Positions 7,602 to 49,613 of a stretch of DNA of 64,000 nucleotides are shown here, piece by piece (position 1 is the first letter of the stretch; each line of letters starts with the position of its first letter). Position numbers and translations under genes: made by a program. The stretch lies in the NCBI GenBank assembly GCA_964390495.1, contig CAYMIN010000011.1, forward strand, positions 29,701 through 93,700, given 5' to 3'. The stretch is from an uncultured Armatimonadia bacterium (GTDB lineage: Bacteria; Armatimonadota; Zipacnadia; Zipacnadales; UBA11051). Below the pieces are notes generated by a model. The model made no database searches. It saw nothing but the letters and a program-made list of their open reading frames with translations, and was not told where the DNA came from.

Positions 7602-8198
7602 TGTCGCTCGCCTATCACCTGTCTCAGTAATGGCTGCTGAGCCGGATTGCCGGGTGGGGTCCCTGGGCAGCCCGAGGTCGTTGCCGGGTCGTAAGCAAAA
7701 AAGAAGGCACAACCGCAAGCGCTGTCCCAGGGACAGTCACTCGATTGCACCTCCGACTTGCAGGCCTTTTATCCTGCCCGGCAAGGCCAACCTGTGTTCA
7801 GGCTCAAGATTTGCAGACCACTCACGCCCGTGTCCGTCCTTGGATTATCTAGACAGGTGTCCTTACCCACCACTGTATTCTCCAACGCCCAACTCGACTC
7901 CTCGTGAGAACAACGGGGTTCTGCGACTGTTGCGGCGCTTGAGGGCACCGTGCCATCGTCCTCGCACGAGCAATCGGTCTCAAGATCAGGAAACTGGGTA
8001 ACGACACTCGCCTGCTCGCTGCGCCACCACATGCGAGCCTAGTACTGACTTGCGCAACTCCGCGAAAGCACCCCGTCGGCCTGGGCAGGCAAGGATGCCT
8101 GCCCTCCAGGAAAGCATTATTGCGTGTAGTTACTCAAGAGAGTACTAGCCTGGCGACGTTCAGCGACGCCGGCTGACTGCAGATGAGGAGTTCAGAGC

Positions 8199-8226
8199 TT
8201 GCCTCTGGTGTAGGGCGTGGTATAAT
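8199..8226 (+). promoter_or_regulatory. Putative sigma70 promoter for the ABC transporter/amidohydrolase operon
   Basis: TTGCCT-N16-TATAAT with an extended -10 TG. Confidence 0.6.
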
Positions 8227-8331
8227 TGGCCGAGCGCAGGTGACCGTTTCGTCCACAAGCGCACCATCGGCGTATCCGTGGCGGGGCGAAGTTGCACTTT
8301 GCCTTCGGCAGACATCGAAGGGCTGTTTGGC

Positions 8332-11794: not shown

Positions 11795-11981
11795 CTCAAA
11801 GGGATGGTTAGAGTGCATGAAAAAAGGTTTTATTTGTTTGCGTTTGCGATATACTAAAGATAATAGTGGCGAAAGTGCGCCGAAGATGTATAAATAGCCT
11901 CACTGGTGCCATGAGTACCTCGGGGATGGCGGGGGCTGGACAAAGCTTCGCTATGCCGTTCGTAGTTCGGAGGTGAAAGCA

Positions 11982-12758
11982 GTGGTTGAAGTGATCGGTG
12001 TGGCCTTGCCAAATGCGACAGCCATTCATTCTAAAGTTAGTATGGTAAAATACGGGCCTTATCCGCTTCACATTGTCGTAATGGACATCACTAACTGGAC
12101 TCGCCTATGCTATGAGGCCAAACAAGCCAATCGCTTCGACGCTATCGCCGAAGGCTTCCGCATATTCGTCGCAGAAGCCTACCAGGCCGAACTCCAGGTG
12201 CGCGTGAACCCGTGCCGCCGGCCGGATAAGTTCCCCCTGGCACGGGAGAGCGAAGATAGTGAACTAGTGGATCCTACGGTGGACATCGCAAACCATACTG
12301 GCGACGGTTTCATTCTGCTATGTTCCAACGCCGAGATGACGCTTGATTTTGCCCGCAAGCTTCGAGACAACGCATTTCGTGCTCTGGTAGATTGCCTCAA
12401 GGCTAGCCACATTTGTTCGGCTGATGACGTTGAGTTACGTCTTGCTATTCATTCCGGAGATGTATGGACAATTCTCAGTAGCGAATCTCAGGCTGCCGAA
12501 GAGCAGTTCGCGATGGGTGATTTCTACTTCTCGGAAGCAATCAACCTCGCGTCAAGACTCGTAACATCAGACTTCTGTCGCGCCGCCAGTACGCGGGCAA
12601 TCTGTACGGAAGAGTTCCGACAATGCTTGCCCGAAAAATACGGGCCTCTATTCGGCCAGCCCCATGAATTGCGCGGGCGCAAAGATGGTGACGAAGAGCG
12701 CGACATAGACTATCCGACCAATGTTCACGTTCACGAGATCTTTGGAGAACCGAAGTAA
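11982..12758 (+). CDS. Stand-alone class III nucleotide (adenylate/guanylate-type) cyclase domain protein
   Basis: VVMDIT, TGDGF, LRLAIHSGDV, AINLASRL and ELRGRK motifs. GGAGGTG RBS precedes GTG 11982 (track start 11973). Looks AT-richer than its flanks (by eye). Confidence 0.75.
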   Translation: MVEVIGVALPNATAIHSKVSMVKYGPYPLHIVVMDITNWTRLCYEAKQANRFDAIAEGFRIFVAEAYQAELQVRVNPCRRPDKFPLARESEDSELVDPTVDIANHTGDGFILLCSNAEMTLDFARKLRDNAFRALVDCLKASHICSADDVELRLAIHSGDVWTILSSESQAAEEQFAMGDFYFSEAINLASRLVTSDFCRAASTRAICTEEFRQCLPEKYGPLFGQPHELRGRKDGDEERDIDYPTNVHVHEIFGEPK

Positions 12759-12768
12759 CGCGTGTGGA

Positions 12769-13323
12769 TTATCGCCGTACAGAGTATATACACCCGCAAT
12801 ACTTCTGGCGATACAGGCCGTACTTCTTCGCTAGCTCCACACTGCGCTTGAAGCCGTCGTGCTTTCTGAAATCCTCGCCCAAGAACTTGACACCAACCAA
12901 CGCTGCCGCCGCCTCTCCGTGCGGGTTGATCTGCGCCGCCGGCTTGTGCGGGCTGACGGTCAGCGTCGAGGCGAAATACTCGCAGCCCAGCTCTTTTGCC
13001 TTTTGGGCCGTCTTCTGCAGCCGTAGGGCGAAGCACACCTCACAGCGCGCCCCGCCTTCAGGCTCGTCTTCAAGGCCGCGCACGGCTTCGGCCCATGCTG
13101 CTTCCCCGCTCTCGTCAACGATTAGTTCCATGCCGACTAGCTCGGCCAGTTGCCGCATCGCCGCGAGCCGCTTGTGGGCTTCCTCAAGCGGCTGGATATT
13201 GGGGTTATACCAGTAGCAGATCACCTCATAATCGCGCGCCAGCCGCTCATAGACTGCGGTGGCGTCCGGCGCGCAGCAGCAGTGCAAGAGCAGTCTCGGT
13301 TTCTTCTGTTCGCGTTCAGTCAT
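12769..13323 (-). CDS. queH: Epoxyqueuosine reductase QueH (DUF208)
   Basis: LLLHCCCAPD, YNPNIQP, RCEVCF, STLTVSPHK, YRQKYCGC. Confidence 0.92.
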   Translation of the reverse strand: MTEREQKKPRLLLHCCCAPDATAVYERLARDYEVICYWYNPNIQPLEEAHKRLAAMRQLAELVGMELIVDESGEAAWAEAVRGLEDEPEGGARCEVCFALRLQKTAQKAKELGCEYFASTLTVSPHKPAAQINPHGEAAAALVGVKFLGEDFRKHDGFKRSVELAKKYGLYRQKYCGCIYSVRR

Positions 13324-13331
13324 TTCATCCG

Positions 13332-13389
13332 CCCTCACCCCCGGCCCCTCTCCCGCTGGGAGAGGGGTGCCCGAAGGGCGGGGTGAGGG
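13332..13389. repeat. Nested palindromic intergenic element (CCCTCACCCC/CCCCTCTCCC type)
   Basis: Outer pair CCCTCACCCC/GGGGTGAGGG, inner CCCCTCTCCC-GCT-GGGAGAGGGG and GCCC-GAA-GGGC. A partial copy lies at 27503-27540. Confidence 0.8.
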
Positions 13390-13393
13390 GCAG

Positions 13394-14470
13394 TTAACTC
13401 CCCCTTACCTCCCCATCCTCCGAAATCTCCGTCACCTCGCTCAGTCCCGCATAGGCCACCGCTCGCAGCCAGGTGCTGAGGCTCTCGCCGGCCTGTATCT
13501 GCAGTTGCCGGTTCTCTTTCATGCACTCGGTCAGGATCGCCGGGTAGCTGGAGAACGGCTCCAGCGCGATCACATACCACCGTCCCCAGCTCGGCGCTTG
13601 CGGGTTGCCGCACAGCGAGATCCAGTACCAGATATGCTTGAACACCTCGGTGTCGAAGGCCATGCCGAAGCCGACTTGCTTCTCGGTGTTGGTGACCGCG
13701 TACCAGCCGTCGGTCAGGTCGGTCAGATAAAGCATGTCCTCCAGCTTGCTCTCAGGCGGGCCAATGTGGCGCACATCAATCATCGCCCCGTCCTGGCTCT
13801 CGCCGGTGGGCCAGGTGAACTCGTGCAGCGGCTGGAAGCGGCCCTCCGGCGGCGCGTTGGGGTCCACTACCACCTTGCGCGCGCCGCAGGACACCACACA
13901 GTCCTGAGACAGAAACGGCGGCCCGAAGGCCGGATGATGTCCCCACATCAGGTCCAGGTCCTGGTCGCTTTCGTTGGTGAGGATTTCATCAATCTCCAGC
14001 ACGCCGCAGCCGCTGCGTAAGGTCAGCGTCTTTGCGAGCAGAAACGGCGTCCGGTAGGTCCGGGTCCAGAGTTTCGCCTGCACGATTTCGGGGTCGTCCT
14101 CGATAATCTGGCAGTTCCAGGGGATGCCCCACAGTTCCCCGTGCTGGCCCATCTCGACGGCGCGATACTCACAGGAGCGCCCGCCGTTGGGCAGCAGCTC
14201 CTGCCAGCCGCCTTCGTAGAAGTCCGAGAAGGGCCCGTGGGTGGCCTCGCGCATGTTATGGCTGTTCAGGTGCGGCCTGACGCCCAGCGGGCTGCGCCAC
14301 ATGAAGTCGGTGTCGGTGGGCTTGTGCACAAACTCGAAGATATCGCTGCCCTTGTCGAGCAAGATGGAGACGCGGATCAGCTCGTTTTCGATGACCATCA
14401 TGCGCAGGCCGCGATAGGTAAGCTCGTCGTTGACCCGGCAGCCGTAGTTACGCTCGTGGGTGTAAGCCAT
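13394..14470 (-). CDS. Aldose 1-epimerase / galactose mutarotase-like (DUF4432-like) protein
   Basis: GGWQELLPNGG, HGELW, MWGHHPAFG and ALEPFS motifs. Confidence 0.8.
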   Translation of the reverse strand: MAYTHERNYGCRVNDELTYRGLRMMVIENELIRVSILLDKGSDIFEFVHKPTDTDFMWRSPLGVRPHLNSHNMREATHGPFSDFYEGGWQELLPNGGRSCEYRAVEMGQHGELWGIPWNCQIIEDDPEIVQAKLWTRTYRTPFLLAKTLTLRSGCGVLEIDEILTNESDQDLDLMWGHHPAFGPPFLSQDCVVSCGARKVVVDPNAPPEGRFQPLHEFTWPTGESQDGAMIDVRHIGPPESKLEDMLYLTDLTDGWYAVTNTEKQVGFGMAFDTEVFKHIWYWISLCGNPQAPSWGRWYVIALEPFSSYPAILTECMKENRQLQIQAGESLSTWLRAVAYAGLSEVTEISEDGEVRGS

Positions 14471-39816: not shown

Positions 39817-40332
39817 ATGAACAGACATCTGATGGGGCCGGACCGGGCGCTCTTCGTCACCATAATTGCGGTGAGCGTGCTTGTTTGGTGTGTGGGTACG
39901 CCGGTCACAGCCGAGCCGGATGACACCCTGGCCGGCTTGATGCGGGATACGGACCTGAAGTATAAGGTCATTGATGAGTACAGCTACCTGGCCCCGTTCG
40001 AGCGCGATAATGAGGAAACGCTCGACGTATTCATCACCTACAACAATGAGAAGAAGAATTTCGTGCTGATCTTCACGACGCTCCTGGACTACGAGGACGG
40101 GCACGAGTTCAGTCCGGAAGTGCTGGCCCGGGCAATGAAGATCAACAACGATTATCCGGTGGTCAAGCTGTGCCTGGATGTGGAGAACGGTGATCTGGAC
40201 TGCCAATCTGAGGTTTATGTGCGCACTCTCGACGCGCAATCGCTGGAGATGCACATCAACTTCGTTGCCAGCATCGCGGATAAGTTCACCGAGGAACTGA
40301 AGGCGATGGAAGAGGGGGAGGCCGTCGGCTAG
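39817..40332 (+). CDS. YbjN / T3SS-chaperone-like fold protein
   Basis: Signal/TM, then VLARAMKINNDYPVVKLCLD...LEMHINFVASIAD pattern. Confidence 0.6.
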   Translation: MNRHLMGPDRALFVTIIAVSVLVWCVGTPVTAEPDDTLAGLMRDTDLKYKVIDEYSYLAPFERDNEETLDVFITYNNEKKNFVLIFTTLLDYEDGHEFSPEVLARAMKINNDYPVVKLCLDVENGDLDCQSEVYVRTLDAQSLEMHINFVASIADKFTEELKAMEEGEAVG

Positions 40333-40362
40333 TCGCAACCGCCAGCTAGCAGAGCCACACCC

Positions 40363-40395
40363 AAAAACTCCGGCCTGCTTGGTGCCGGAGTTTCG
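40363..40395. terminator. Bidirectional intrinsic terminator
   Basis: AAAAACTCCGGC-ctgcttggt-GCCGGAGTTT between convergent 39817-40332 and tRNA-Pro. Confidence 0.75.
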
Positions 40396-40403
40396 TTGAG
40401 ATA

Positions 40404-40481
40404 TGGTCGGGGCGGCCGGATTCGAACCGGCGACCTTACGGACCCGAACCGTACGCGCTAGCCAAGCTGCGCCACGCCCCG
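40404..40481 (-). tRNA. tRNA-Pro (anticodon CGG), CCA encoded
   Basis: Cloverleaf CGGGGCG..., anticodon arm TACGG-TTCGGGT-CCGTA, T-loop GGTTCGAATCC, 3' ACCA. Confidence 0.97.
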
Positions 40482-40491
40482 ACCCATACGC

Positions 40492-40520
40492 AGTATAACA
40501 CGCCGGCTTGCCACGGTCAA
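40492..40520 (-). promoter_or_regulatory. sigma70 promoter for tRNA-Pro
   Basis: Minus strand TTGACC-N17-TATACT, just upstream of the tRNA 5' end. Confidence 0.7.
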
Positions 40521-40607
40521 CAACGATGTGATACCGGAATATGTGGGCGAATCGGTGATGAACGCGGGCAATGCCGTGACTGGCTCGGAGGCAAGAAAGG
40601 GGTATGT

Positions 40608-41054
40608 ATGGAGACCATGAGGCTGCGGCCGCATCATCTGCTCGACATCATCACCGCCTACGGCGCAGGCGCGGAGTTCAAGCCCCATCCCTACGGCCAT
40701 GCCGTCCACACCTGCGCCGCGATCGTGCTCAATGACCTCGACACCGAGGTGGAGTTCATCGTCGGCGCCGACTTCATCTGCGAGCCCTGCATCCACCTGG
40801 TCGAGGGCCGCTGTGATGATGTGGTGTCCCAGCTCGATCCGCCGCCGTCCAAGCAGGATTACAACGACGATCTCGACCGGCGCGTGTTGGCGCACCTGCA
40901 GATGGAAGAAAGCACGGTGATGAGTGTGGGCGAATTCCTGCAGGTGGTGCGGGAGCACTTCGCGGGCCTGCCCCAAATCTGCGTCCACCCCCAGCGCTCG
41001 GTTGAAAAGCGGGCGGCCAACCTCAACGCCGGGCTGGAAAAGCTGGGAGTATAG
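40608..41054 (+). CDS. DUF1284-like Cys/His metal-binding protein
   Basis: RLRPHHLLDI and GADFICEPCIHL motifs. Confidence 0.65.
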   Translation: METMRLRPHHLLDIITAYGAGAEFKPHPYGHAVHTCAAIVLNDLDTEVEFIVGADFICEPCIHLVEGRCDDVVSQLDPPPSKQDYNDDLDRRVLAHLQMEESTVMSVGEFLQVVREHFAGLPQICVHPQRSVEKRAANLNAGLEKLGV

Positions 41055-41140
41055 CGGCATGGCCGTTGCCGGATATAAAGTCGCGGCCTTAGCAGTAGCA
41101 GTGACTACAGTGGAGTACAGACAATAGCAAGGAGAATGCC

Positions 41141-42745
41141 ATGAGTTCGGTGCCTGATGTCAAGTTCGACAGCTTCTATCGCTACGATGAGATGGTGGAG
41201 TTCCTCAAGGGATGCCAGGCCGCGGCCGGGGATCTCTGCAAGCTCGCCAGCCTGGTCGAGACGCCCGAAGGCCGTCAGGTCTGGATCGCCACCCTTACCG
41301 ACCCGGCTACCGGAGCGCCGGAGGATAAGCCGGCATACTACGTCCAGGCCAGTGTCCACGCCCAGGAGATGGCCGGTACCACCGCGGCCCTGCGGCTGAT
41401 CCATACGCTGCTGACCGCTGGTGAGGCCGGAAAGATGCTGCAGGAAATGACGTTCTACGTGGTGCCGAGGGCCAACCCCGACGGGGTCGAGTACGCCATG
41501 ACCACCGGCGGGACGATTCGCAGCCGCAACGAGATTCTGGAGAAGCGCAACGGGTTGGTTCCGGAAGATATCAACGGTGACGGCCTGATTCTCAACATGC
41601 GCTGGGAGGACTCGGCCGGGCCCTTCACCGAGGACCCCGAAGACCCGCGGATTATGGTGCCGCGACGTCCGGGTGATGAGGGGCCGTTCTATCAGCAGTA
41701 CCAGGAAGGCACGGTCCGCGACTACGACGGCGGGCCGCTGGTCTCAGCCGTCAAGGGCTATGACTTCAACCGCAACTACCCGGCCAACTGGGACTTCAAC
41801 ACCGACGCCGCCGACCATCCCTTCGCCCAGCCGGAGATCAAAGCCGTCGGCAGCTTCCTGCTGGAGCACAAGAACGTCTTCGCCGGCATAGACTTCCACT
41901 GCGGCTCGCAGGCGGTGCTGCGGCCCTCCAGCACGCCCGACAATGACATGAATCAGGCCGACCTGGGGTTGATTATCGAGATCGGCAAGATCGGCGAGAA
42001 GCTGACCGGCTTTGGGCTGATGAATGTGCGCGATTACCGCGATCCCTGGCGGGCGCCGATCACCCTGCGCGGCAACTCCGGCGACTTTGCCTACTTCGAA
42101 CTGGGCATTTCCTGGTATGTCATCGAGCTGGGCAACGGCTACAGCAGCTCGGGTATTGACATTCAAACCTTTTTTAACGCCGACGAGGAGACCCGCCAGC
42201 GCGATTTCATGCGCCGGCTCATGGAGTTCGCCGACGAGAGCGAAGGCCGCGACGTATTCGTGCCCTGGCAGGACTGCGAGCATCCGCAGCTCGGTAAGGT
42301 GCAAGTCGGCGGCATGAGCATCGCGGCTACGCACTACCCGTATCCGCCGCACATGGCTGAAATCTCCGCCAACACCACCAAGTTCCTGCTGGAGCACGCC
42401 TCCTGGCATCCGCAGCTCTGCCTGTCGAATGTGGAGGTCGCCGGCGTCGGTGAGGGCGTCTATCGCCTCCGCGCCGATGTCGCCAATACCGGCCGCTTCG
42501 CCACCAACGTCATGTCAACCGGCATCGGTAGCCGAAGCGCCGAGCCGGTGGCGGTGAAGCTGGAGAAGGTGGAGGCGGCCAAGATATTCTCACGCCCGCG
42601 GGTCTATGAATTTGCGGCTCTGGGCGGTGGTGGTGGAGGCCAGCAGATGGAGTGGTTCGTCGGCGCCTCGCCGGGCGATGAGATCACCATCACCGCCTCC
42701 CACCCCCGCGGGGGGATCGTCAGGGAAAGGCTGAAGTTGCCATGA
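41141..42745 (+). CDS. M14 family zinc carboxypeptidase
   Basis: HAQE (HxxE), VVPRANPDG, NRNY, IDFHCG. Confidence 0.88.
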   Translation: MSSVPDVKFDSFYRYDEMVEFLKGCQAAAGDLCKLASLVETPEGRQVWIATLTDPATGAPEDKPAYYVQASVHAQEMAGTTAALRLIHTLLTAGEAGKMLQEMTFYVVPRANPDGVEYAMTTGGTIRSRNEILEKRNGLVPEDINGDGLILNMRWEDSAGPFTEDPEDPRIMVPRRPGDEGPFYQQYQEGTVRDYDGGPLVSAVKGYDFNRNYPANWDFNTDAADHPFAQPEIKAVGSFLLEHKNVFAGIDFHCGSQAVLRPSSTPDNDMNQADLGLIIEIGKIGEKLTGFGLMNVRDYRDPWRAPITLRGNSGDFAYFELGISWYVIELGNGYSSSGIDIQTFFNADEETRQRDFMRRLMEFADESEGRDVFVPWQDCEHPQLGKVQVGGMSIAATHYPYPPHMAEISANTTKFLLEHASWHPQLCLSNVEVAGVGEGVYRLRADVANTGRFATNVMSTGIGSRSAEPVAVKLEKVEAAKIFSRPRVYEFAALGGGGGGQQMEWFVGASPGDEITITASHPRGGIVRERLKLP

Positions 42746-42752
42746 GCCGCAT

Positions 42753-42838
42753 AAATTGGGGACAGTCACCTATTTCCCAATTTCCACAGTCTCCACTGCT
42801 ATCTCTTTACGAGGGAAATAGGTGACTGTCCCCAATTT
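42753..42838. mobile_element. MITE/REP-like element with perfect 26-bp terminal inverted repeats
   Basis: AAATTGGGGACAGTCACCTATTTCCC (42753-42778) and its exact reverse complement (42813-42838) around a 34-bp spacer. Confidence 0.75.
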
Positions 42839-42903
42839 GAAAAGGACTCGGAGCAATGGCAGCAATAGGTGACCGGGCCCGATTCGGGGGGCCGAGATAG
42901 GGT

Positions 42904-42932
42904 TTGACTTTTGTCAGCCCATTTCATATACT
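42904..42932 (+). promoter_or_regulatory. sigma70 promoter for the YjbH-like gene
   Basis: TTGACT-N17-TATACT. Confidence 0.7.
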
Positions 42933-42975
42933 TGTGGCATTGGACAGCGATGGAGCGGGCGTAACTACTTAGGAG

Positions 42976-43704
42976 GTGAGCCGCTTGCGAACCTGGCTTG
43001 TGTTTGTAGCCGCAATTCTCGTTTTGGCTTTGGCGAGCGCGACGGTGGTGGCCGATCCGTACCTCTCGATCTGGGAGATGGAGACAGCAGACACCAGTGT
43101 CACCAATTCCTGGATCGGCTCAACTGGTATGGTCCTGACCCCGACGGCCAAGACCTGCGTGCCGCAGGGCATGATCGGCAGCTACCACTGGATTGATGTT
43201 GATCCTGATGCAGGCGACGTCTGGAGTGTGAATGTCGGTATCACAGGTAATCTGGAGATCGGCGCAGCCCGACTGGGCAAGGACCTGACCGGTGGCGATG
43301 CAGAAGTCGTCGCCAATGCCAAGTACAACTTGGACCTGGGGCGCTGGACCGAGAATCCGGAAGCTCCCGAGGTGGCTGTCGGTGTCTGGGACATCGGCAA
43401 TGAGGTCAACCGCACTTACTACCTGGTGGTGACCCAGGATCTGGAGATTGCTGAGGAGGCGCAAGTGTCCAGTTTGCGTGCCAGCATCGGCTATGCCGAC
43501 AGCGACGCCAATACCGGCACGATGGACGGGGTATTCGGGGGCATTGAGTTTGTTCCCTTCGAGAGCGGCCTGGTGAAGCTGGAATACGACGCCGACGACT
43601 TCAACGCCGCGCTGTTGTATTCGTGGTCCGATAAGCTTTCTCTGGAGATCGGCTCGATTGACGGCGACCTCGGCCTGGGTGTGAACTTCCAGACCGGCTT
43701 CTAG
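42976..43704 (+). CDS. YjbH-like outer-membrane beta-barrel protein
   Basis: Signal peptide, IGSTGMVLTPTA, alternating amphipathic strands, EYDADDFNAAL, C-terminal Phe. Confidence 0.65.
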   Translation: MSRLRTWLVFVAAILVLALASATVVADPYLSIWEMETADTSVTNSWIGSTGMVLTPTAKTCVPQGMIGSYHWIDVDPDAGDVWSVNVGITGNLEIGAARLGKDLTGGDAEVVANAKYNLDLGRWTENPEAPEVAVGVWDIGNEVNRTYYLVVTQDLEIAEEAQVSSLRASIGYADSDANTGTMDGVFGGIEFVPFESGLVKLEYDADDFNAALLYSWSDKLSLEIGSIDGDLGLGVNFQTGF

Positions 43705-43735
43705 CTGGCCCGTCAACTCAACATAGATAGATCAC

Positions 43736-43765
43736 TGGGACGCCCGCGCGGGCGTCCCATTTTCT
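43736..43765 (+). terminator. Intrinsic terminator
   Basis: TGGGACGCCC-GCGC-GGGCGTCCCA followed by TTTTCT. Confidence 0.8.
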
Positions 43766-43847
43766 ATATCCCCATCACGAACGGCAAGGGCCGATGCGAG
43801 GCAGCCTTGGGCAAATCTAGCAGCTTCAGGGCTTGTCTCCGGCCTTA

Positions 43848-43887
43848 GGAAGGGTCTGCAGGAAGGGGTTGGAGGCCTGCTCGCGGC
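43848..43887 (+). repeat. 40-bp direct repeat, left boundary of the R-M cassette (displaced 3' end of the MBL gene)
   Basis: GGAAGGGTCTGCAGGAAGGGGTTGGAGGCCTGCTCGCGGC, identical to 47997-48036. Confidence 0.93.
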
Positions 43888-43906
43888 CTCCACCGTCGAC
43901 GGCCCA

Positions 43907-45085
43907 TCACAGCAGCCCCCATCTCTTGCCCTGCGCTACCCGGCTGCAAAGATCCTCAAAGGCTGGATAAGTAGGATCCGATTGGGGCAGTATTGTCACC
44001 TCGTAGAGGGGGTCACTTCCCTGGGGTAATCTGCTGATGATTAGGAGGTCCCCGCCATCAGGTGCCATAAGGTCGATTGTCTGGTTATCCATCCGAAGAC
44101 GATACTCACCGCGTTGTTCGTAGTACCATATTCGGTAGTTGTGACGTTCCCGCTCGCTGGGCGTGTTGAGAACGACGTCAAAGAACTCGTCTGGATGCTG
44201 ACGGCCGCGCAGGAGGATTGCCGGAAAGAAGTTGGTTGCATCATGGGGGATCAATACCTCGGGAGTACCTGGAGTGCCAGTCCGGTGACTCGAGTCGAAG
44301 GGCGACAATACCATGATGAAAGTGTCCGCCGTCGCACTGACCTGAGGAGGAACAACAATGCTTGGCCGTGATGCAGGTGAGTGGCTCGACCCAGGAGCCG
44401 GCGCAGGGGCTACCGGAACTGCCAGGGCCGGGAAGATGGTCGCCAGGGGTGTCACAGAGTAATTGGGGGATTCGGCCCCTGGTGAATCCGTCTGCGCTTC
44501 ATACTCCTGCCAAGCAGCTTCAGTTCGCAGTATGCCAGCCTCGACTAACTGATGCAGAGTGCTTTCAGTTACCGGTTGGACGTTAGGGTGTGCCGTATTG
44601 AGTAGTTGTCTGATGAATTCGCGATAGCGCTGATGCACCAAGAAGTCTGCGTCGATCTCAAAGTCGAGGTGAACTGCTGTAGCCAATTCGATATTCCGAA
44701 AGAGCCCATCACGTGTCAAGTTCGCACTGCCAACAATGGCAATGGCCTGCGAATGACCAGATATGAGATAGAGCTTGGGGTGGTAGATAAGCGATGATAC
44801 TGTGTAAAACACGGTACTGTCGCCTGACACTTCGCGCAAAGCGCGAAGCGCTTCGATGGACGTAACGCCACCATCTACTCCGACCGCGCCTGACACAGTG
44901 CCACCTCGGTTCAGCAGTGTTCCTACGGACGCCGCAATGCGGCTCCACCCGGAGAGCCTCATGTAGGCGACACCAAATTCAAATTGCCGGGCCGCCTCAT
45001 CGGCAATGCTCCTGTTCAGCACGTCACCGACCCGCACAGCGGGTACGCCTCCTACGTGGGCTTGGGGAATCACCTCGATGCGCAC
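43907..45085 (-). CDS. Phospholipase D (HKD)-family restriction endonuclease, BfiI/NgoFVII-like
   Basis: FGVAYM..SG, single YHPKLY...VGSANLTRDGLFRNIELA motif, Pro/Ser linker, C-terminal beta-rich putative DNA-binding domain. Confidence 0.82.
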   Translation of the reverse strand: MRIEVIPQAHVGGVPAVRVGDVLNRSIADEAARQFEFGVAYMRLSGWSRIAASVGTLLNRGGTVSGAVGVDGGVTSIEALRALREVSGDSTVFYTVSSLIYHPKLYLISGHSQAIAIVGSANLTRDGLFRNIELATAVHLDFEIDADFLVHQRYREFIRQLLNTAHPNVQPVTESTLHQLVEAGILRTEAAWQEYEAQTDSPGAESPNYSVTPLATIFPALAVPVAPAPAPGSSHSPASRPSIVVPPQVSATADTFIMVLSPFDSSHRTGTPGTPEVLIPHDATNFFPAILLRGRQHPDEFFDVVLNTPSERERHNYRIWYYEQRGEYRLRMDNQTIDLMAPDGGDLLIISRLPQGSDPLYEVTILPQSDPTYPAFEDLCSRVAQGKRWGLL

Positions 45086-45088
45086 CGC

Positions 45089-46693
45089 TCACCGCCTTCT
45101 CAGAATGATGAGGGCTTCAGACCGTATCGAATTGGCGCTGTGCACGTCAAAGCGGCTATAGGTGTCCAATTCAACGGTCTCTTGCAGGTCGAATCCGTTG
45201 TGCTCTGCCAGCTCGCAAAGCAGGCAGGGCGTGTCAATGACGATTTCCCGCCCGCCTAGGGTGGTCTGGTTGCGCCCGACAAGCAACGCGAAGGGCGCCC
45301 CTTTCTTGAGGAGGCGACGCATCTGCTCGAACGTCTGTTGCATCTCTGCGAGATAGCGGTAGATCAGAGCGGGGCGGTTCTGACGGCGAAACCCGTCTAC
45401 GTCACCATCGATACAGCGCCGGAGCCGCCTGCACAACGCCAAGCATCCTCTTGGCAGGCCGAGCGCGTTGTGTGCGAGAGCACTCTCAAGTTGACAACGA
45501 TCACCATTGGTTATCTCGCGGGTACCGATAAGGGCTCTCTCCAAGCGTCGAAGTTCCTTGGCGTTTACCAGGCCGAGAAACGCAAGACTCAGACGTTGCG
45601 TGTCGATGTAGGGCAGCGCTGTTGCGTACGGAGGACTGGTCATAGCCGCATCGAATAGCCGATGCGGAGACTGCATAAGACTTCTTATGGCATCCTCACA
45701 CCGGCGAGAGTCAGCCAGAGCCACATACTGGTCGGCCTGCGGGCTCGGCAAATGCTGGCACGCCCTCTCGATGGAGGCGATTCTATCCCTGACGGCCTCA
45801 ATGAATAGAGGAATAACAGGCAAGTTCTCGGGGCTGGATTTGCGCCGACGTATCCGGAGATCCGCAGGCTCCTGAAGTGAGACTTGCCGAAGGATGTCGC
45901 TCAGAATGGTCAGGAATACTTGCCGCCCATCTTGCCGACCGATCTTTTCTACCGCACGCTTGATGGCCGCAAGCTGCGCTAAGACTGAAACAGTGAACCA
46001 GGCTGACAAGTACTCAAAGTTCGGCAGTGTTTGCTGCCAGTCATCTCCTGCGATCTTGGTGATGTCTTTCGCAGAAAGTGGTTTCTCGAGCGCCGTATCG
46101 CCCAGAACTGCGGCCAGTCTGTGGAATAGCGAATGCATTTCGGCTATCAGGCGGTCGATCGACATGTGCACTGCCGCAATCTTGGCAGCGGCGATCTGCA
46201 CAGCCAGCGGGTTGAGGTCAACCCCTACAGCATTCCAACCTATGTGACCCGCCTCGAGAAGTGTCGTGCCACTGCCACAAAAGGGATCCAGCACCCACGC
46301 ACCAGACCCTAGGCCGAGAATGTTTCCAATCGCGCGCACTACCTGGGGATTGAACTTACCACGATATTCGTGAAGCCCGTGAGCTGAATACCTGGTGTTC
46401 TGGCGAGTAAGTTTCGGCGGGATAGTTCTCGATGGCCAATCATCAGCCACACCCTTGGCTGTTGCCTCCAGAACAGCCTGAAGCGGCGTCACCTCTGTGC
46501 CATCTTCTGCTAGTGCTCGGTAAAAGTAGGTGGTTCGGCTGGCCGCCGTTTGCCAATCACCCTGGTATTCCAGCCACATACCTGCGCTACCTGGTTCAGC
46601 TTGGCGCCCAAACAAGGCAGCCAACTCGCGCTTAGCGAATAGATGTTCATATGGCAGATATCGATATCCTTGCCACGTGAATTCTAGCCGCAT
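45089..46693 (-). CDS. Amino-(probably N4-cytosine) DNA methyltransferase 2, with N-terminal extension
   Basis: HGLHEYRGKF.PQ, VLDPFCGSGTTL, TSPPY; start overlaps the upstream MTase stop. Confidence 0.9.
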   Translation of the reverse strand: MRLEFTWQGYRYLPYEHLFAKRELAALFGRQAEPGSAGMWLEYQGDWQTAASRTTYFYRALAEDGTEVTPLQAVLEATAKGVADDWPSRTIPPKLTRQNTRYSAHGLHEYRGKFNPQVVRAIGNILGLGSGAWVLDPFCGSGTTLLEAGHIGWNAVGVDLNPLAVQIAAAKIAAVHMSIDRLIAEMHSLFHRLAAVLGDTALEKPLSAKDITKIAGDDWQQTLPNFEYLSAWFTVSVLAQLAAIKRAVEKIGRQDGRQVFLTILSDILRQVSLQEPADLRIRRRKSSPENLPVIPLFIEAVRDRIASIERACQHLPSPQADQYVALADSRRCEDAIRSLMQSPHRLFDAAMTSPPYATALPYIDTQRLSLAFLGLVNAKELRRLERALIGTREITNGDRCQLESALAHNALGLPRGCLALCRRLRRCIDGDVDGFRRQNRPALIYRYLAEMQQTFEQMRRLLKKGAPFALLVGRNQTTLGGREIVIDTPCLLCELAEHNGFDLQETVELDTYSRFDVHSANSIRSEALIILRRR

Positions 46694-47835
46694 GTAGGAG
46701 TCTCCAAAGAGAACACTACGAGATGTTCACGATTTATCCGACTATTGACCGGGTTAAAGCTCTTGCGTCTCGCAGGGATTTGGCGTTCTATGGCATCCCA
46801 CAAGACAAACCCGTGCTGTGCCGACGCATCTATGAGCAGCTTGACGTTATCTATGAGACGCCCCCGGATAATCGAGCGGCCCACAATGAAGCAGGCCTTC
46901 GCCTGCGGCAGCATTACTTCGGCTAGGAGACCGAATACGGCTCCCATCTGTCGCTCGAAGTCATGTTCATCCTGACCATTGACCTTGTGATAGTGTGGCC
47001 GGGCGCCAATTTCGCGTTCCCGCACGGCTATTGGATCCATGCCCAGCCAATACATTCGGTACTTGTGGTATAGCCAGTATTCGTAGGCATTCGGGTATGG
47101 TGGCGACGTGATCACGAGGCCCGCTCTCACTCCGAGTTCGTCAGGAGTAACACTCAGAATGTCACGGTTCACGATTCTTGCTTTACCGGGGGTGACTGGC
47201 AAGCCCCCAATGAATTCGCACAGAGCGCCATCCAGTGCGAGTGCAGCCCTGGAGAACAGCCTGAATACATCATCTGCCGAAACGTTCTTTTCCATGGCTG
47301 CATAGCGCGTGTCACTTTCCTGATTAGAAACGCGCACGATTATGCTGGACAGGGCGACCTGCAAAGCTTCCCTCTGCGATACGTCTTGCACTCCGCTAAT
47401 CTGATGGGTCAACGCCGCCAGCGCCTCTTGGACATGCGGCTGGAACCAGTGATCCAGTCTAGGGATTGATGGGACGCATACCGTCCCAGAAGACACCTGT
47501 TTCCGTGCCTCACCGGCTATGTCCGTAACCATCCGTCCTAGCGATGCCGACAGTTGTGACGTCTTGACCCTTGCAATCAAGCAGGCAAGGGGGTGTATGT
47601 CTATGCCACACGCATCAAATCCCAGTGCGATTGCCTCAACAAGGGTCGTGCCGGAGCCACAAAAGGGATCTAGCACGACACTGCCGTCCGCAGGCGGGAA
47701 TCGATGAAGTACCTGCCGCGGAATGTCAGCAATGAACTTGGCTGGATAGGGGTGAATACCGTGAACACCGCTACTAGGTGGGGCATCTGCAAAGTCCCAA
47801 TCCAGCGCATCCAGTCTTTGAGTCCGAGAAGCCAT
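46684..47835 (-). CDS. Amino-(probably N4-cytosine) DNA methyltransferase 1
   Basis: HGIHPYPAKFI, VLDPFCGSGTTL, ITSPPY. Start at MASRTQ (47835); alternative start at 47853. Confidence 0.9.
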   Translation of the reverse strand: MASRTQRLDALDWDFADAPPSSGVHGIHPYPAKFIADIPRQVLHRFPPADGSVVLDPFCGSGTTLVEAIALGFDACGIDIHPLACLIARVKTSQLSASLGRMVTDIAGEARKQVSSGTVCVPSIPRLDHWFQPHVQEALAALTHQISGVQDVSQREALQVALSSIIVRVSNQESDTRYAAMEKNVSADDVFRLFSRAALALDGALCEFIGGLPVTPGKARIVNRDILSVTPDELGVRAGLVITSPPYPNAYEYWLYHKYRMYWLGMDPIAVREREIGARPHYHKVNGQDEHDFERQMGAVFGLLAEVMLPQAKACFIVGRSIIRGRLIDNVKLLIDASAQHGFVLWDAIERQIPARRKSFNPVNSRINREHLVVFSLETPTCG

Positions 47836-47928
47836 ACCTGTGTCGTCCCGCATTTCTTTGCCAAAGGTTCGCGTGGCGGTCTGCTGCCTAACTGATATTC
47901 ATCACGGCCCTGGGCTGCTACAAGTATC

Positions 47929-47957
47929 AAGGTACCCCGTAGGGCGCGTGTTGTCAA
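47929..47957 (-). promoter_or_regulatory. sigma70 promoter carried inside the R-M cassette
   Basis: Minus strand TTGACA-N17-TACCTT upstream of MTase 1. Confidence 0.65.
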
Positions 47958-47986
47958 GCCGCGATCCCCATCGTGGTAATGGCCCG

Positions 47987-48622
47987 TCATACGCCCGGAA
48001 GGGTCTGCAGGAAGGGGTTGGAGGCCTGCTCGCGGCGCATGGTTGTGGCCGCACCGTGGCCGGGATACAGCCGCGTGTCATCAGCCAGGGATGAGACGAG
48101 ACGCGTCAAGGAAGCGACCATTTCCTGCTCATCGCCACCCGGCAAGTCCGTGCGGCCGATGCTGCCGGCAAACAGCGTATCACCGCAGAATGCCGCATCA
48201 GCCGTTACGAAGCATACCCCACCGGGCGAATGGCCCGGTGTGTGCATCACGGTGATGTCCAGCCCGGCCAAATGCAGTTGATCGCCCTCGCCAAGTTCCA
48301 CATCAACGCGGCAACCCTCGGCACCACCCACCAGGGAAGCCCAGTAGGGGTCAGGCTTATTGATGATCTCGGCGTCGGCAGCATGGGCATAGACCTTAGC
48401 TGCAGTGGCGCGCTGGATTGCGGCGGCGGCGGCGATATGGTCCACATGGCCGTGGGTAAGCAGTAAGGCCTGGACGGACTTACCGATCCTGGCGGCTTGC
48501 TGCAGGAGAGCTTGCGGCTCGCCGCCGGGGTCTATCATCAGGATGCAGTCGGCCTCATCGGCGCCTACCAGATAGCAGTTCGTCGCCAGGGCGCCGACCG
48601 TTGCGGTCTCAATCCTTAACAT
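47987..48622 (-). CDS. MBL-fold hydrolase (glyoxalase II/YcbL-like)
   Basis: TNCYL, IDPG, LLTHGHVDHI, HTPGHSPG, FCGDTLF..SIGRTDLPGG, PGHG, EQASNPFL. Confidence 0.92.
   Translation of the reverse strand: MLRIETATVGALATNCYLVGADEADCILMIDPGGEPQALLQQAARIGKSVQALLLTHGHVDHIAAAAAIQRATAAKVYAHAADAEIINKPDPYWASLVGGAEGCRVDVELGEGDQLHLAGLDITVMHTPGHSPGGVCFVTADAAFCGDTLFAGSIGRTDLPGGDEQEMVASLTRLVSSLADDTRLYPGHGAATTMRREQASNPFLQTLPGV
47997..48036 (+). repeat. 40-bp direct repeat, right boundary (within the MBL gene 3' end)
   Basis: Identical to 43848-43887; encodes REQASNPFLQTLP on the minus strand. Confidence 0.93.
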
Positions 48623-48758
48623 AATCTAGCGCACGCCATTGGCAGGATTCTCACCAGATTGGCTTGACAGGTTACTGAAGTTTTTGCCGGAGGGGTGCGG
48701 GGAACCGGCTTTTCCCAAAAAGCGGCTTTCCCGCAGGGCTGTTGCTCCACTGCCGTGC

Positions 48759-49613
48759 TTACCCTTCACTTTCGTATATTTCCTGGTCCCAACCGACGCG
48801 AGCCATCTGCGAGGGCAAGGCGGCACGCAGATGCCAGCGCCGTGCCCAGTCGCGGTCATACTCGTCCAGGGGCCCGGCCTGGCGATAGGCCGCCAGAGCC
48901 GCGGCCGGGTTGTCGGTCAGCAGCAGCAATTCACCCATCAGATAGAGATAGACCGCGTTCTCAGGGTTGATCTTGTAGGCGCGTCGCAGTTGCTGGAGGG
49001 CCTTGGCGAAGCACTGCTGGCGCACGTAGATGATGCTGAGCCGGACATTGTAGAAATCTTCGGCCGGCGCGCAGGCGATGGCGACTTCGTATTCGGCGGC
49101 GGCGGCGTCCCACTGACGGCGGCGGGCGTAGAGGTCGGCCAGCTTATGGTGGTAGAAGCCGTCTTGGGGTGCTAGCTCAATGGCGCGCTCGAACTGACGC
49201 CGGGCCCGGTGAAAATCGCCGCGCGCCAGATACAGCTCGCCCAGGCGGCAGTGGTAGTAGTGCCTGGTCGGGTCGCACTTGACGGCTTTCTCCAGAGCGT
49301 GGATGGCGGCGGCAAAGCGGCTGATATGGATCCAGAACTCGGCCAGGCAGAAGTGGGCCTCGGCGTGCCGCGGATGGATGCTGAGGGCCTTCTTATATGC
49401 GCGGTAGGCCTGCTGGGGCATATTCGCTGCGAAGTAGGCGTCCCCCAGCGCCACCGAAGTGTCGGGGTCCTGACTATCGAGTTTGCCGGATTGCTGGTAC
49501 TCGCCGATGGCCTCCTCGATGAAGCCCTGTTCGGCCAGCAGGTCGCCGTGGAGGCGGTGATCGGCGGCCTGGCGCCGGCGTGTGCTCTGGCTCTGCGATT
49601 CCGAATGCGCCAT
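48759..49613 (-). CDS. Tetratricopeptide repeat protein
   Basis: Multiple TPR-like repeats (ALGDAYF, AHFCLAE, YHCRLGELY, YHHKLADLY, YLYLMGELL). Confidence 0.88.
   Translation of the reverse strand: MAHSESQSQSTRRRQAADHRLHGDLLAEQGFIEEAIGEYQQSGKLDSQDPDTSVALGDAYFAANMPQQAYRAYKKALSIHPRHAEAHFCLAEFWIHISRFAAAIHALEKAVKCDPTRHYYHCRLGELYLARGDFHRARRQFERAIELAPQDGFYHHKLADLYARRRQWDAAAAEYEVAIACAPAEDFYNVRLSIIYVRQQCFAKALQQLRRAYKINPENAVYLYLMGELLLLTDNPAAALAAYRQAGPLDEYDRDWARRWHLRAALPSQMARVGWDQEIYESEG

What the first reader, a model, noticed from the sequence alone, without database searches (positions are those of the whole stretch)
43848..48036. Integrase-less 4.1-kb R-M islet inserted into the 3' end of a housekeeping gene with a perfect 40-bp duplication
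The two copies of the 40-mer delimit exactly three genes plus their promoter. The right copy lies in the last codons of the MBL hydrolase gene; the left copy is an orphan copy of those codons. No integrase, transposase or transfer gene is present. This fits either site-specific integration of a minimal satellite-like cassette using a helper integrase in trans, with a protein-coding attB, or the insertion-with-long-target-duplication mode described for R-M systems. It could excise by recombination between the repeats and be maintained by post-segregational killing.
Basis: partly seen in the sequence, partly recalled or inferred. Interest (0 to 1): 0.75.

Follow-up and report, generated by a model that had tools for sequence, protein, structure and literature searches.

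The report
Integrase-less restriction-modification islet with 40-bp duplication
A foreign three-gene restriction-modification operon (two DNA methylases and a BfiI-like nuclease) sits in the last codons of a conserved hydrolase gene of an uncultured Armatimonadota bacterium, flanked by a perfect 40-bp duplication and with no integrase; this is a clean new example of a way restriction systems are already known to move.

Summary
A perfect 40-nt direct repeat (43848-43887 and 47997-48036; none expected by chance) brackets 4,109 bp. This stretch holds only M1, M2 and R on the minus strand, 143 nt upstream of M1 and 19 nt downstream of R.

- **Empty sites:** four related Armatimonadota loci have the hydrolase (MBL) gene running straight into the convergent YjbH-like gene, with one copy of the repeat region.
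- **Foreign origin:** islet GC3 is 0.58-0.61, against 0.72-0.83 in host genes.
- **Not an artefact:** each junction recurs in an independent assembly.
- **No mobility genes:** no integrase or transposase lies within 10 kb.
- **Gene identities:** R has the BfiI architecture (PLD nuclease plus B3-like domain). M1 and M2 are paralogous Type II methyltransferases.
- **Cassette relatives:** the same cassette occurs in six other genomic contexts, including an archaeon. It is always low in GC, never near an integrase and never flanked by repeats there.

The islet meets every published criterion for "R-M insertion with long target duplication" (Furuta 2010), so it is a new member of a known kind.

Two post hoc signals suggest the 40-mer was carried by the element as an att-like site. 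The islet supplies an MBL-like replacement tail (8/10 nt, p~8e-4). An 8-7-8 inverted repeat straddles the islet end and the orphan repeat copy (p~0.0025). The catalyst is unknown, and excision and addiction are inferred only.

The parts
47997..48036 (.). Right copy of the perfect 40-nt direct repeat. It lies in the last codons of the MBL gene (attL-like junction: B-O-islet).
   Evidence: junction also present in the independent contig L082
43848..43887 (.). Left, orphan copy of the 40-nt repeat (attR-like junction: islet-O-native flank). It is followed by the native MBL tail and the intergenic region.
   Evidence: junction also present in the independent contig L102
47987..48622 (-). Target gene: MBL-fold hydrolase (GloB-like, 211 aa). 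It sits in conserved TPR-MBL synteny across Armatimonadota. Its present C-terminus ...LQTLPGV* is completed by islet DNA.
47981..47996 (-). First 16 nt of the islet (GGGCGTATGACGGGCC). This is a GC-rich, MBL-like replacement tail that supplies Gly-Val-stop. It matches GGGCGCTTGA of relatives at 8/10.
   Evidence: empirical p = 8e-4 for 8/10; 0.007 for 10/17
47929..47957 (-). Candidate promoter of the operon: TTGACA, 17-nt spacer, TACCTT. It resembles TTGACA-17-TACAAT upstream of M1 in L095.
   Evidence: read from the sequence; not called by the consensus scan
46684..47853 (-). M1, Type II DNA methyltransferase (389 aa; DPFCGSGTT and TSPPY motifs).
   Evidence: Pfam N6_N4_Mtase 3e-14; PADLOC MTase_II 1e-112, full length; PDB N4C/modification methylases
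45089..46693 (-). M2, Type II DNA methyltransferase (534 aa). It is a paralogue of M1 (28% identity), and its start overlaps the end of M1 by 10 nt.
   Evidence: PADLOC MTase_II 4e-99
43907..45085 (-). R, BfiI-like restriction endonuclease (392 aa): N-terminal PLD nuclease domain (H102, K104, N122, E133 invariant in the family) plus a C-terminal B3-like DNA-binding domain.
   Evidence: profile against 2c1l, E = 3.3e-10; Foldseek 2c1l 1.5e-14; also 4rct, 3hqf, 5o63
43870..43892 (-). Perfect 8-7-8 inverted repeat TGGAGGCC-GCGAGCA-GGCCTCCA. It straddles the boundary between the islet end and the orphan repeat copy. It may be a recombinase-core-like dyad or a 3' hairpin of the R transcript.
   Evidence: only 0.25% of random 30-mers from the window placed there give an inverted repeat of 8 nt or more; RNA fold -19 kcal/mol
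43736..43759 (+). Host GC-rich hairpin terminator between the YjbH-like gene and the original MBL end, conserved in relatives. It is now the first terminator-like structure downstream of R.
42976..43704 (+). Convergent YjbH-like gene, the neighbour of MBL at the empty sites.

Best explanation
The islet is a recently acquired Type IIS-like restriction-modification operon of the BfiI kind. It encodes two paralogous methyltransferases, one for each strand of an asymmetric site, and a PLD/B3 nuclease. It entered the chromosome of an uncultured Armatimonadota bacterium as a naked three-gene unit, in the last codons of a conserved MBL-fold hydrolase gene, and left a perfect 40-bp direct repeat. By the published operational criteria it is an 'R-M insertion with long target duplication'.

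How it got in is inferred, not shown. Most likely the unit already carried the 40-mer and a short MBL-like tail as an att-like segment. It then integrated by a Campbell-type single crossover with the chromosomal MBL 3' end. The catalyst would be either a recombinase supplied in trans or host homologous recombination. This would explain three things:
- the gene is re-completed by islet DNA (LPGV*)
- the displaced native tail (LPKAGDKP*) lies after the orphan copy
- the islet end forms an 8-7-8 dyad with the repeat

The operon has a weak promoter of its own. No terminator separates it from MBL, so read-through from MBL is also likely. Transcription would end at the host terminator.

Shown: the structure, the foreign origin, the empty sites, the gene identities and the absence of mobility genes. 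Inferred: the crossover mechanism, excision through the repeats, and maintenance by post-segregational killing.
For: - **Repeat and anatomy:**
- **Empty sites with a single repeat copy.** L001 7977-8586 maps to window 48601-47992, and L001 8547-9532 maps to 43882-42904; the overlap is the repeat. L002, L083/L084 and L092 show the same.
- **Foreign composition.** GC is 0.563 against 0.624 (z = -4.7). GC3 is 0.58-0.61 against 0.72-0.83.
- **Independent assemblies of both junctions:**
- **R-M identity:**
- **Published criteria met.** R and M in the insert, insert under 20 kb, duplication over 30 bp, no mobility genes (PMC2853133), all satisfied.
- **The cassette family travels without integrases.** This holds in 6 other contexts, where cassette GC is 6-20 points below the flanks.
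- **Att-like hints.** The islet-borne tail GGGCGTATGA matches the relatives' GGGCGCTTGA at 8/10, in the same frame and with the same stop position (p = 8e-4). The 8-7-8 dyad lies at the islet/repeat boundary (p about 0.0025), at the 5' edge of the identity block, which then runs to the end of the gene.
Against: - No recombinase gene is present, and none could be sought outside the window.
- The reconstructed attB has no dyad symmetry.
- No other element uses the MBL 3' end in 80 orthologous loci, including 9 Armatimonadota loci.
- The six other copies of the cassette have no flanking repeats and no conserved end motif, so the cassette family has no universal att site.
- The two att-like signals were found post hoc among roughly ten features examined.
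- No conspecific empty allele and no circular junction was found. The protein cluster of this MBL has a single member. The metagenome scan for the empty site found only a relative with about 80% nucleotide identity to the window.
Confidence: 0.5

Rival explanations
1. The 40 bp is a true target-site duplication. The cassette was captured at a double-strand break or at widely staggered nicks in the MBL 3' end, and fill-in duplicated 40 bp of recipient DNA. The 40-mer was therefore never part of the element. On this reading the MBL-like tail and the dyad at the junction are coincidences, perhaps helped by selection for a short, harmless C-terminal tail. This is the mechanism loosely implied for the Kobayashi-type 'long target duplication' class.
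For: - The duplication is sharp-edged and perfect, with no homology beyond it.
- The target is single-copy at the empty sites.
- All operational criteria of PMC2853133 are met.
- There is no integrase.
- Other copies of the cassette show insertion without any conserved ends.
- If a stop codon at that position is assumed to be selected, the tail match weakens to about p = 0.03. That figure is my own estimate.
Against: - The tail match (p = 8e-4) and the junction-straddling dyad (p = 0.0025) would both have to be chance.
- The first 16 nt of the islet are 75% GC, like host DNA, whereas the islet as a whole is 56% (read from the sequence).
- No mechanism that makes 40-nt staggered cuts is known for BfiI-type enzymes, which leave 1-nt overhangs (PMC2475615).
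Confidence: 0.28
2. The islet is a decayed integrative element of the CIME type. A larger island or ICE/IME with its own integrase integrated site-specifically into the MBL 3' end. Internal deletions later removed the integration and transfer genes, leaving attL, the R-M cargo and attR. The remnant could be mobilised in cis by a related incoming element.
For: - It has perfect att-like direct repeats at the 3' end of a gene, with the gene end restored.
- There is a dyad at the edge of the identity block.
- It fits the definition of a CIME: att sites retained, integration and transfer genes lost (PMC5704250).
Against: - There is no remnant of any other gene. Only 19 nt lie between the R stop and the repeat, and only 143 nt between the repeat and M1, so both deletion end-points would have had to fall almost exactly at the att sites.
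- No related element occupies this site in any of the 80 loci examined.
- The same three-gene cassette is found naked in six unrelated contexts.
Confidence: 0.1
3. The R-M system mobilises itself. The BfiI-like PLD nuclease works through a covalent phosphohistidine-DNA intermediate and can perform transesterification and DNA-hairpin formation. It would itself catalyse the strand transfer that joined the cassette to the target.
For: - R has the BfiI catalytic residues with identical spacing.
- BfiI is documented to form a covalent intermediate, to transesterify to DNA 3'-OH groups and to make hairpins on self-complementary ends (PMC2475615).
- A self-complementary 8-7-8 sequence sits exactly at one junction.
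- The cassette family spreads without any recombinase.
Against: - This is purely circumstantial.
- No recognition site could be identified at a fixed distance from the junctions when the flanks were inspected (sequences).
- The other six insertions show no repeats or hairpins at their ends.
- No such activity in vivo has been reported in the papers read.
Confidence: 0.04
4. The structure is an assembly artefact. On this reading a free 4.1-kb circle sharing 40 nt with the chromosome was threaded into the chromosome by the assembler.
For: With k = 31 the repeat collapses. The Logan contigs break exactly 30 nt into each repeat copy (4,169 = 4,109 + 2 x 30), so short-k graphs cannot tell the integrated and free forms apart.
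Against: - A MEGAHIT k141 contig from a different ENA sample spans MBL, repeat and islet (L082).
- A contig from another JGI sample spans islet, repeat, native flank and YjbH with one SNP (L102).
- Several long contigs (50-236 kb) share the same neighbourhood.
Confidence: 0.02

Closest known systems
R-M gene complexes inserted with long target duplication (Nobusato et al. 2000, Gene 259:99; Furuta, Abe & Kobayashi 2010, NAR 38:2428, PMC2853133)
   Same: - The insert holds only R and M genes, is under 20 kb and contains no mobility gene.
- It is flanked by a unique direct repeat longer than 30 bp that is single-copy at the empty locus.
- The repeat length (40 bp) is close to the published H. 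influenzae cases (46 bp), whose repeats also overlap the 3' end of a gene.
- The first H. pylori cases were all Type IIS systems, as this one appears to be.
   Different: - The host phylum is Armatimonadota (class-level relatives are Ca. Zipacnadia/Armatimonadia), and the data are metagenome-assembled.
- The empty sites are interspecific (about 80% nucleotide identity), not intraspecific.
- The islet supplies an MBL-like replacement tail and forms a dyad with the repeat. The passages of the paper that I read do not mention such features, and they point to an att-like site rather than a fill-in duplication.
CIMEs (cis-mobilizable elements) of Streptococcus and other integrase-less att-flanked remnants (Guedon et al. 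2017 review, PMC5704250)
   Same: - It is flanked by attL/attR-like direct repeats at the 3' end of a protein-coding gene.
- It has no integrase or transfer genes.
- CIMEs can carry cargo such as R-M systems (from my own knowledge of the S. thermophilus fda-site elements).
   Different: - There are no remnants of decay.
- No related ICE or IME was found at this site.
- The same cassette occurs naked in unrelated loci in other phyla.
BfiI R-M system of Bacillus firmus (PDB 2c1l; PMC2475615, PMC2853115)
   Same: - The nuclease has an N-terminal PLD domain with one HxK...N...E set at the same spacing as BfiI.
- It has a C-terminal B3-like DNA-binding domain.
- It is accompanied by two methyltransferases. 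That BfiI itself has two methyltransferases is from my own knowledge.
   Different: - Sequence identity to BfiI is only about 16%.
- The recognition sequence is unknown.
- The methyltransferases have SPPY motifs in a permuted order (motif I before motif IV) relative to the Pfam N6_N4_Mtase model.
Integrase-mediated islands in the 3' ends of tRNA or protein genes, including minimal R-M plus integrase units (for example Xylella PD1606-1608 in PMC2853133)
   Same: [quoted passage not shown]
- The element restores the gene's 3' end.
- The direct repeats are perfect.
   Different: - There is no integrase gene in or near the insert.
- The reconstructed attB lacks dyad symmetry.

Membership tests
R-M insertion with long target duplication (Furuta 2010 criteria) | Both R and M gene homologues lie in the inserted sequence | tested here: met
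   M1 and M2 match PADLOC MTase_II at 1e-112 and 4e-99. The R family profile hits BfiI at 3.3e-10, and the fold hits it at 1.5e-14.
R-M insertion with long target duplication (Furuta 2010 criteria) | Insert shorter than 20 kb | tested here: met
   4,109 bp lie between the repeats.
R-M insertion with long target duplication (Furuta 2010 criteria) | Flanking direct repeat longer than 30 bp that aligns with a single copy at the empty locus of a compared genome | tested here: met
   The repeat is a perfect 40/40. L001 has one copy (31/40), with both flanks collinear. L083, L092 and L002 are also empty. The comparison is between species, not within one.
R-M insertion with long target duplication (Furuta 2010 criteria) | No other mobile element or mobility gene in or beside the insert | tested here: met
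   The precomputed Pfam hits for genes within +/-10 kb show no integrase or transposase; several of those genes have no hit on record. None was found in the other low-GC segments of the window. No terminal inverted repeats were found.
Integrase-mediated site-specific island (phage-like or ICE-like) | A tyrosine or serine recombinase gene within the element | tested here: not met
   The islet has only three genes, none of them a recombinase.
Integrase-mediated site-specific island (phage-like or ICE-like) | Direct repeats equal to the att core, with the element restoring the 3' end of the target gene | tested here: met
   The islet supplies G-V-stop. Its first 10 nt match the relatives' tail at 8/10, p = 8e-4.
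Integrase-mediated site-specific island (phage-like or ICE-like) | Dyad-symmetric core sites in both attP and attB | tested here: inconclusive
   An 8-7-8 perfect dyad is present in the attP/attR arrangement. The reconstructed attB has none.
CIME (cis-mobilizable element) | Derived from an ICE or IME by loss of integration and transfer genes, with related elements using the same site | tested here: not met
   There are no gene remnants (19 nt and 143 nt of spare sequence). No element was found at the MBL 3' end in 80 orthologous loci, including 9 Armatimonadota loci.
CIME (cis-mobilizable element) | att sites recognised by the integrase of a related element (excision or accretion in cis) | not testable with these tools
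   This needs the full genome or community and experiments.
BfiI-like Type IIS R-M system | Nuclease with a single PLD (HxK...N...E) catalytic domain | tested here: met
   H102, K104, N122 and E133 are invariant in 25 homologues. They align to the BfiI PLD segment (HAKLY...GNFT...E) in the profile alignment. The identification with BfiI catalytic residues H105, K107, N125 and E136 is from my own knowledge of BfiI.
BfiI-like Type IIS R-M system | C-terminal B3-like DNA-recognition domain | tested here: met
   Foldseek on an AlphaFold2 model (mean pLDDT 79.6) gave full-length 2c1l, 3hqf (EcoRII-N), 5o63 (UbaLAI B3) and 4rct (NgoAVII R). Profile hits to 3zi5 and 3hqf are weak.
BfiI-like Type IIS R-M system | Two methyltransferases for an asymmetric site; cleavage at a fixed distance; metal independence | tested here: inconclusive
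   Two paralogous methyltransferases are present. Specificity and cleavage chemistry cannot be tested with these tools.
Transposon-like R-M unit (terminal inverted repeats plus short target duplication) | Terminal inverted repeats and a target duplication under 10 bp | tested here: not met
   There are no inverted repeats at the islet ends, and the duplication is 40 bp.

The most novel reading that the evidence does not exclude
The 40-mer is a genuine att site that belongs to a minimal, recombinase-less R-M cassette. Its core would be the 8-7-8 dyad at the 5' edge of the identity block, and the cassette would also carry a replacement tail for the gene. Such a cassette would hop between related Armatimonadota by site-specific recombination into a protein-coding attB. 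The recombinase would be borrowed in trans, in the manner of a satellite. More radically, the cassette's own BfiI-like PLD nuclease could do the joining through its covalent phosphohistidine transesterification chemistry.
Probability: 0.2. Interest if true: 0.7.

Novelty: new member of a known kind. Interest (0 to 1): 0.38.

Why it matters
R-M systems that move without any recognisable mobility gene have been described by genome comparison for more than 20 years. Their insertion mechanism is still unknown.

This case is unusually clean. The repeat is a perfect 40 bp, the insert holds three genes, and there is almost no spare DNA. Four empty sites are available for comparison, and both junctions are seen in independent assemblies. 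The host phylum is also poorly studied.

The junction anatomy adds something testable. The element supplies a replacement gene tail, and a dyad sits at the boundary between the repeat and the islet. Both suggest that the "target duplication" may really be an element-borne recombination site, and this can be checked with reads from the source samples.

The same cassette family is also a useful set for asking how such units spread. It occurs naked in six other contexts, from Gammaproteobacteria to a haloarchaeon, and once in the middle of a trp operon.

Tried and rejected
- **Conspecific empty site.** A gapped pattern spanning B-O-B' in JGI metagenomes found only L092, which is 96% identical to L083 and about 80% to the window. 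The 90% protein cluster of this MBL has a single member, and the next relative is 81% identical. No intraspecific empty allele is available.
- **Other cargo at the same site.** None of 80 MBL-orthologue loci has a second copy of its own MBL 3' end, apart from unrelated short repeats in L008, L025 and L046. The genes downstream of MBL in L003-L006 look ordinary.
- **A vehicle for the cassette.** The repeat core has no match in IMG/VR. The R family has one weak partial hit there. In plasmids only distant PLD domains match.
- **Flanking repeats or conserved end motifs in six other cassette contexts.** None were found.
- **Near-identical R or M variants in another context.** P0242 is not on record. 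P0244 turned out to be the same locus in another sample.
- **Homology between the two junctions beyond the 40-mer.** There is none.
- **Alternative in which the present MBL end is native and the crossover lay downstream of the tails.** This was rejected because the downstream block CCTGAAGCTGCT is not duplicated at the right junction.
- **Rfam families in 40000-49000.** Only tRNA-Pro was found.
- **A recognition site at a fixed distance from both junctions.** Inspection of the flanks found nothing.

Full report
**1. The observation**

The 40-nt sequence GGAAGGGTCTGCAGGAAGGGGTTGGAGGCCTGCTCGCGGC occurs at 43848-43887 and 47997-48036 and nowhere else in the window, even when three mismatches are allowed. 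No match is expected in shuffled sequence.

On the minus strand the right copy encodes ...R-E-Q-A-S-N-P-F-L-Q-T-L-P of a 211-aa MBL-fold hydrolase (47987-48622; Pfam Lactamase_B 9e-31). These codons are followed by GGC GTA TGA, which reads G-V-stop. The left copy is an orphan. In the same frame it would continue K-A-G-D-K-P-stop.

Between the copies lie 4,109 bp. They hold three co-oriented, tightly packed genes:
- M1, 46684-47853
- M2, 45089-46693, overlapping M1 by 10 nt
- R, 43907-45085, 3 nt after M2

Besides the genes there are 143 nt upstream of M1 and 19 nt after the R stop. The two junctions share nothing beyond the 40 nt: 9/40 matches on one side and 8/40 on the other.

**2. It is an insertion, it is foreign and it is real**

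The organism is an uncultured member of the Armatimonadota. The closest MBL loci come from Candidatus Zipacnadia and Armatimonadia MAGs.

Four related loci carry an empty site. In each, MBL is followed after about 140 nt by the convergent YjbH-like gene, with the same GC-rich terminator hairpin between them:
- L001 (78% amino-acid identity in MBL)
- L083/L084 (81%)
- L092 (a JGI metagenome contig)
- L002 (66%)

BLASTN maps the continuous L001 sequence 7977-9532 onto window 48601-47992 and 43882-42904. The 40-nt overlap is exactly the repeat. L001 has a single copy of the 40-mer region, matching at 31/40.

The islet is compositionally foreign:
- GC is 0.563 against 0.624 for the rest of the window (z = -4.7).
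- GC3 is 0.58-0.61 against 0.72-0.83 for host genes.

The structure is not an assembly artefact:
- A MEGAHIT k141 contig from an ENA sample (L082) spans MBL, repeat and islet.
- A contig from a different JGI sample (L102, one SNP) spans M2, R, repeat, native flank and YjbH.
- Several contigs of 50-236 kb share the same neighbourhood.
- Logan contigs (k = 31) break exactly 30 nt into each repeat copy (4,169 = 4,109 + 2 x 30). This is expected for a 40-nt repeat and says nothing about a circular form.

**3. What the genes are**

M1 and M2 are full-length matches to PADLOC Type II methyltransferase models (1e-112 and 4e-99). They are paralogues with 28% identity. Both carry FxGxG and TSPPY motifs. 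From general knowledge of methyltransferase motifs, SPPY suggests N4-cytosine methylation.

R is a PLD-family nuclease. The evidence is as follows:
- Pfam PLDc_2 and RE_NgoFVII match just below threshold.
- A profile of 25 homologues hits BfiI (2c1l) at E = 3.3e-10 across both domains.
- H102, K104, N122 and E133 are invariant in those homologues and align to the BfiI PLD segment. Their identification with the BfiI catalytic residues is from my own knowledge.
- An AlphaFold2 model (mean pLDDT 79.6) finds BfiI first (1.5e-14). It also finds NgoAVII R and the B3-like domains of EcoRII and UbaLAI.

A PLD/B3 nuclease with two methyltransferases is the BfiI arrangement, that is a Type IIS-like system for an asymmetric site. 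The recognition sequence and the enzyme activities are untested.

**4. No mobility genes, here or with the relatives of the cassette**

No integrase, transposase or transfer gene appears among the precomputed Pfam hits for the called genes within +/-10 kb. None was found in the other low-GC stretches of the window. The islet has no terminal inverted repeats.

The same M1-M2-R cassette (R 39-58% identical) was inspected in six other contexts:
- L087, inside a trp operon between trpF and trpB
- L089, a Competibacteraceae genome
- L093, L095 and L098, three further metagenome contigs
- L100, the haloarchaeon Halorussus aquaticus

In every one of them the cassette is 6-20 GC points below its flanks. 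No integrase lies within 8 kb. There is no flanking direct repeat of 14 nt or more, and the ends share no motif. No copy was found on plasmids or viral contigs.

**5. Comparison with what is known**

Furuta, Abe and Kobayashi (2010; PMC2853133) define "R-M insertion with long target duplication" by four features:
- R and M genes in the insert
- an insert shorter than 20 kb
- a duplication longer than 30 bp
- no other mobile element

Their H. influenzae cases have 46-bp repeats that overlap the 3' ends of genes. The first H. pylori cases were all Type IIS systems. The present islet meets every criterion, so it is a new member of a known kind. The mechanism of that class is unknown. The authors only suggest that it involves double-strand breakage, and they propose a virus-like cycle that uses the repeats.

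**6. What the junctions add**

Two features suggest that the 40-mer belonged to the element rather than being filled in at insertion.

(a) The first nucleotides of the islet are GGGCGTATGA-CGGGCC.
- In L001, L083 and L092 the MBL gene ends GGGCGCTTGA-GGCGAGGCC (L-P-G-A-stop or equivalent).
- The islet matches this at 8/10, in the same frame and with the stop in the same place.
- Only 0.08% of 10-mers in the window match as well.
- These 16 nt are 75% GC, like host DNA.
- The native tail after the orphan copy (TAAGGCCGGAGACAAGC) matches at only 8/17. It is followed at once by 12/12 identity (CCTGAAGCTGCT) and by the conserved intergenic region, so it is the true chromosomal continuation.
- The C-terminal tail of this MBL family is naturally variable.

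(b) The last 5 nt of the islet (TGGAG), together with the first 18 nt of the orphan copy, form a perfect 8-7-8 inverted repeat, TGGAGGCC-GCGAGCA-GGCCTCCA.
- Only 0.25% of random 30-mers from the window placed at that position give an inverted repeat of 8 nt or more.
- The dyad lies at the 5' edge of the identity block, which then runs to the end of the gene. From general knowledge, this is the layout seen for integrases that target the 3' ends of genes.

Several points count against an att site:
- The reconstructed attB has no dyad.
- No recombinase is present.
- The site is not used by any other element in 80 orthologous loci.
- Both signals were found post hoc.

**7. Most likely mechanism**

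I consider a Campbell-type single crossover the best-supported reading. A circular form of the cassette would carry the 40-mer plus an MBL-like tail and would recombine with the chromosomal MBL 3' end. The catalyst would be a recombinase acting in trans or host homologous recombination. My confidence in the whole statement is about 0.5. The descriptive part is near certain and the mechanism is not.

The rivals, with rough weights:
- a true fill-in duplication at a break (about 0.28)
- a decayed island of the CIME type (about 0.1; disfavoured because only 19 nt and 143 nt of spare DNA remain)
- self-mobilisation by the PLD nuclease (about 0.04)
- an assembly artefact (about 0.02)

The self-mobilisation idea rests on BfiI-type chemistry, which includes a covalent intermediate, transesterification and hairpin formation on self-complementary ends (PMC2475615).

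**8. Expression and maintenance (inferred)**

A TTGACA-17-TACCTT element lies about 75-100 nt upstream of M1. It resembles TTGACA-17-TACAAT at the equivalent place in L095, but the consensus scan did not call it.

No terminator separates MBL from M1, and none follows R before the host hairpin at 43736-43759. Read-through from MBL and termination at the host terminator are therefore plausible.

Forty base pairs of perfect direct repeat would allow rare precise excision. Loss of an active R-M system would be counter-selected by post-segregational killing (general knowledge; PMC3874152). In every sample where this MBL allele was found the islet is present and nearly invariant, with 0-1 SNP. This is consistent with a recent, fixed acquisition.

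**9. Verdict**

It is a clean new example, in a poorly known phylum, of a known mode of R-M mobility. The junction details make the unknown mechanism testable. Interest is moderate.

Noticed in passing
window 42753-42884: A perfect 26-nt inverted repeat (AAATTGGGGACAGTCACCTATTTCCC / GGGAAATAGGTGACTGTCCCCAATTT, 34 nt apart) lies in the intergenic region between the M14 carboxypeptidase gene and the YjbH-like gene. A third, 81% similar copy sits at 42864-42884. No Rfam family matches it. It could be an operator, a structured RNA or a small repeat element.
   Followed up: partly
L087 4310-11197: In a JGI metagenome contig the same M1-M2-R cassette, plus a 156-aa ORF, sits inside a tryptophan operon between trpF and trpB and points the same way as the operon. 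A second small insert (a UPF0175/DUF3368 toxin-antitoxin-like pair plus DUF7689) lies between trpC and trpF. Neither has an integrase or flanking repeats.
   Followed up: partly
L089, L093, L095, L098, L100: The three-gene cassette is conserved from Gammaproteobacteria (Competibacteraceae) to a haloarchaeon (Halorussus aquaticus chromosome). It is always 6-20 GC points below its flanks and never has a mobility gene within 8 kb. This makes a good set for studying naked R-M spread.
   Followed up: partly
window 11201-13400: This is the lowest-GC stretch of the window (minimum 0.514 in 1-kb windows). It holds an ORF with no Pfam match (11973-12758) next to QueH and Amidohydro_2 genes. No integrase is present. 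It may be another small foreign insert.
   Followed up: partly
window 47997-48022 (inside the repeat): The 40-mer contains an internal 7-nt direct repeat, CCCTTCC-TGCAGA-CCCTTCC on the coding strand, overlapping a CTGCAG palindrome. This is read from the sequence. Its relevance to recombination is unknown.
   Followed up: no
L081 10728-11939 (= window 46684-47895): The JGI gene calls for this contig split M1 into a 226-aa product and add a 63-aa ORF on the opposite strand. The reading frame is in fact open for 383-389 aa and was called whole in the Logan contig. This is an annotation artefact, not a frameshift.
   Followed up: yes
L008 10610-10643; L046 10608-10626: Just downstream of the MBL orthologue of Desulfotruncus arcticus, a 34-nt sequence recurs at two other places in the locus. 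In L046 a 19-nt piece of the MBL 3' end recurs 686 nt downstream. Neither was examined further.
   Followed up: no
window 40404-40481: tRNA-Pro(CGG) lies 3.4 kb from the islet, and no integrated element is adjacent to it.
   Followed up: yes
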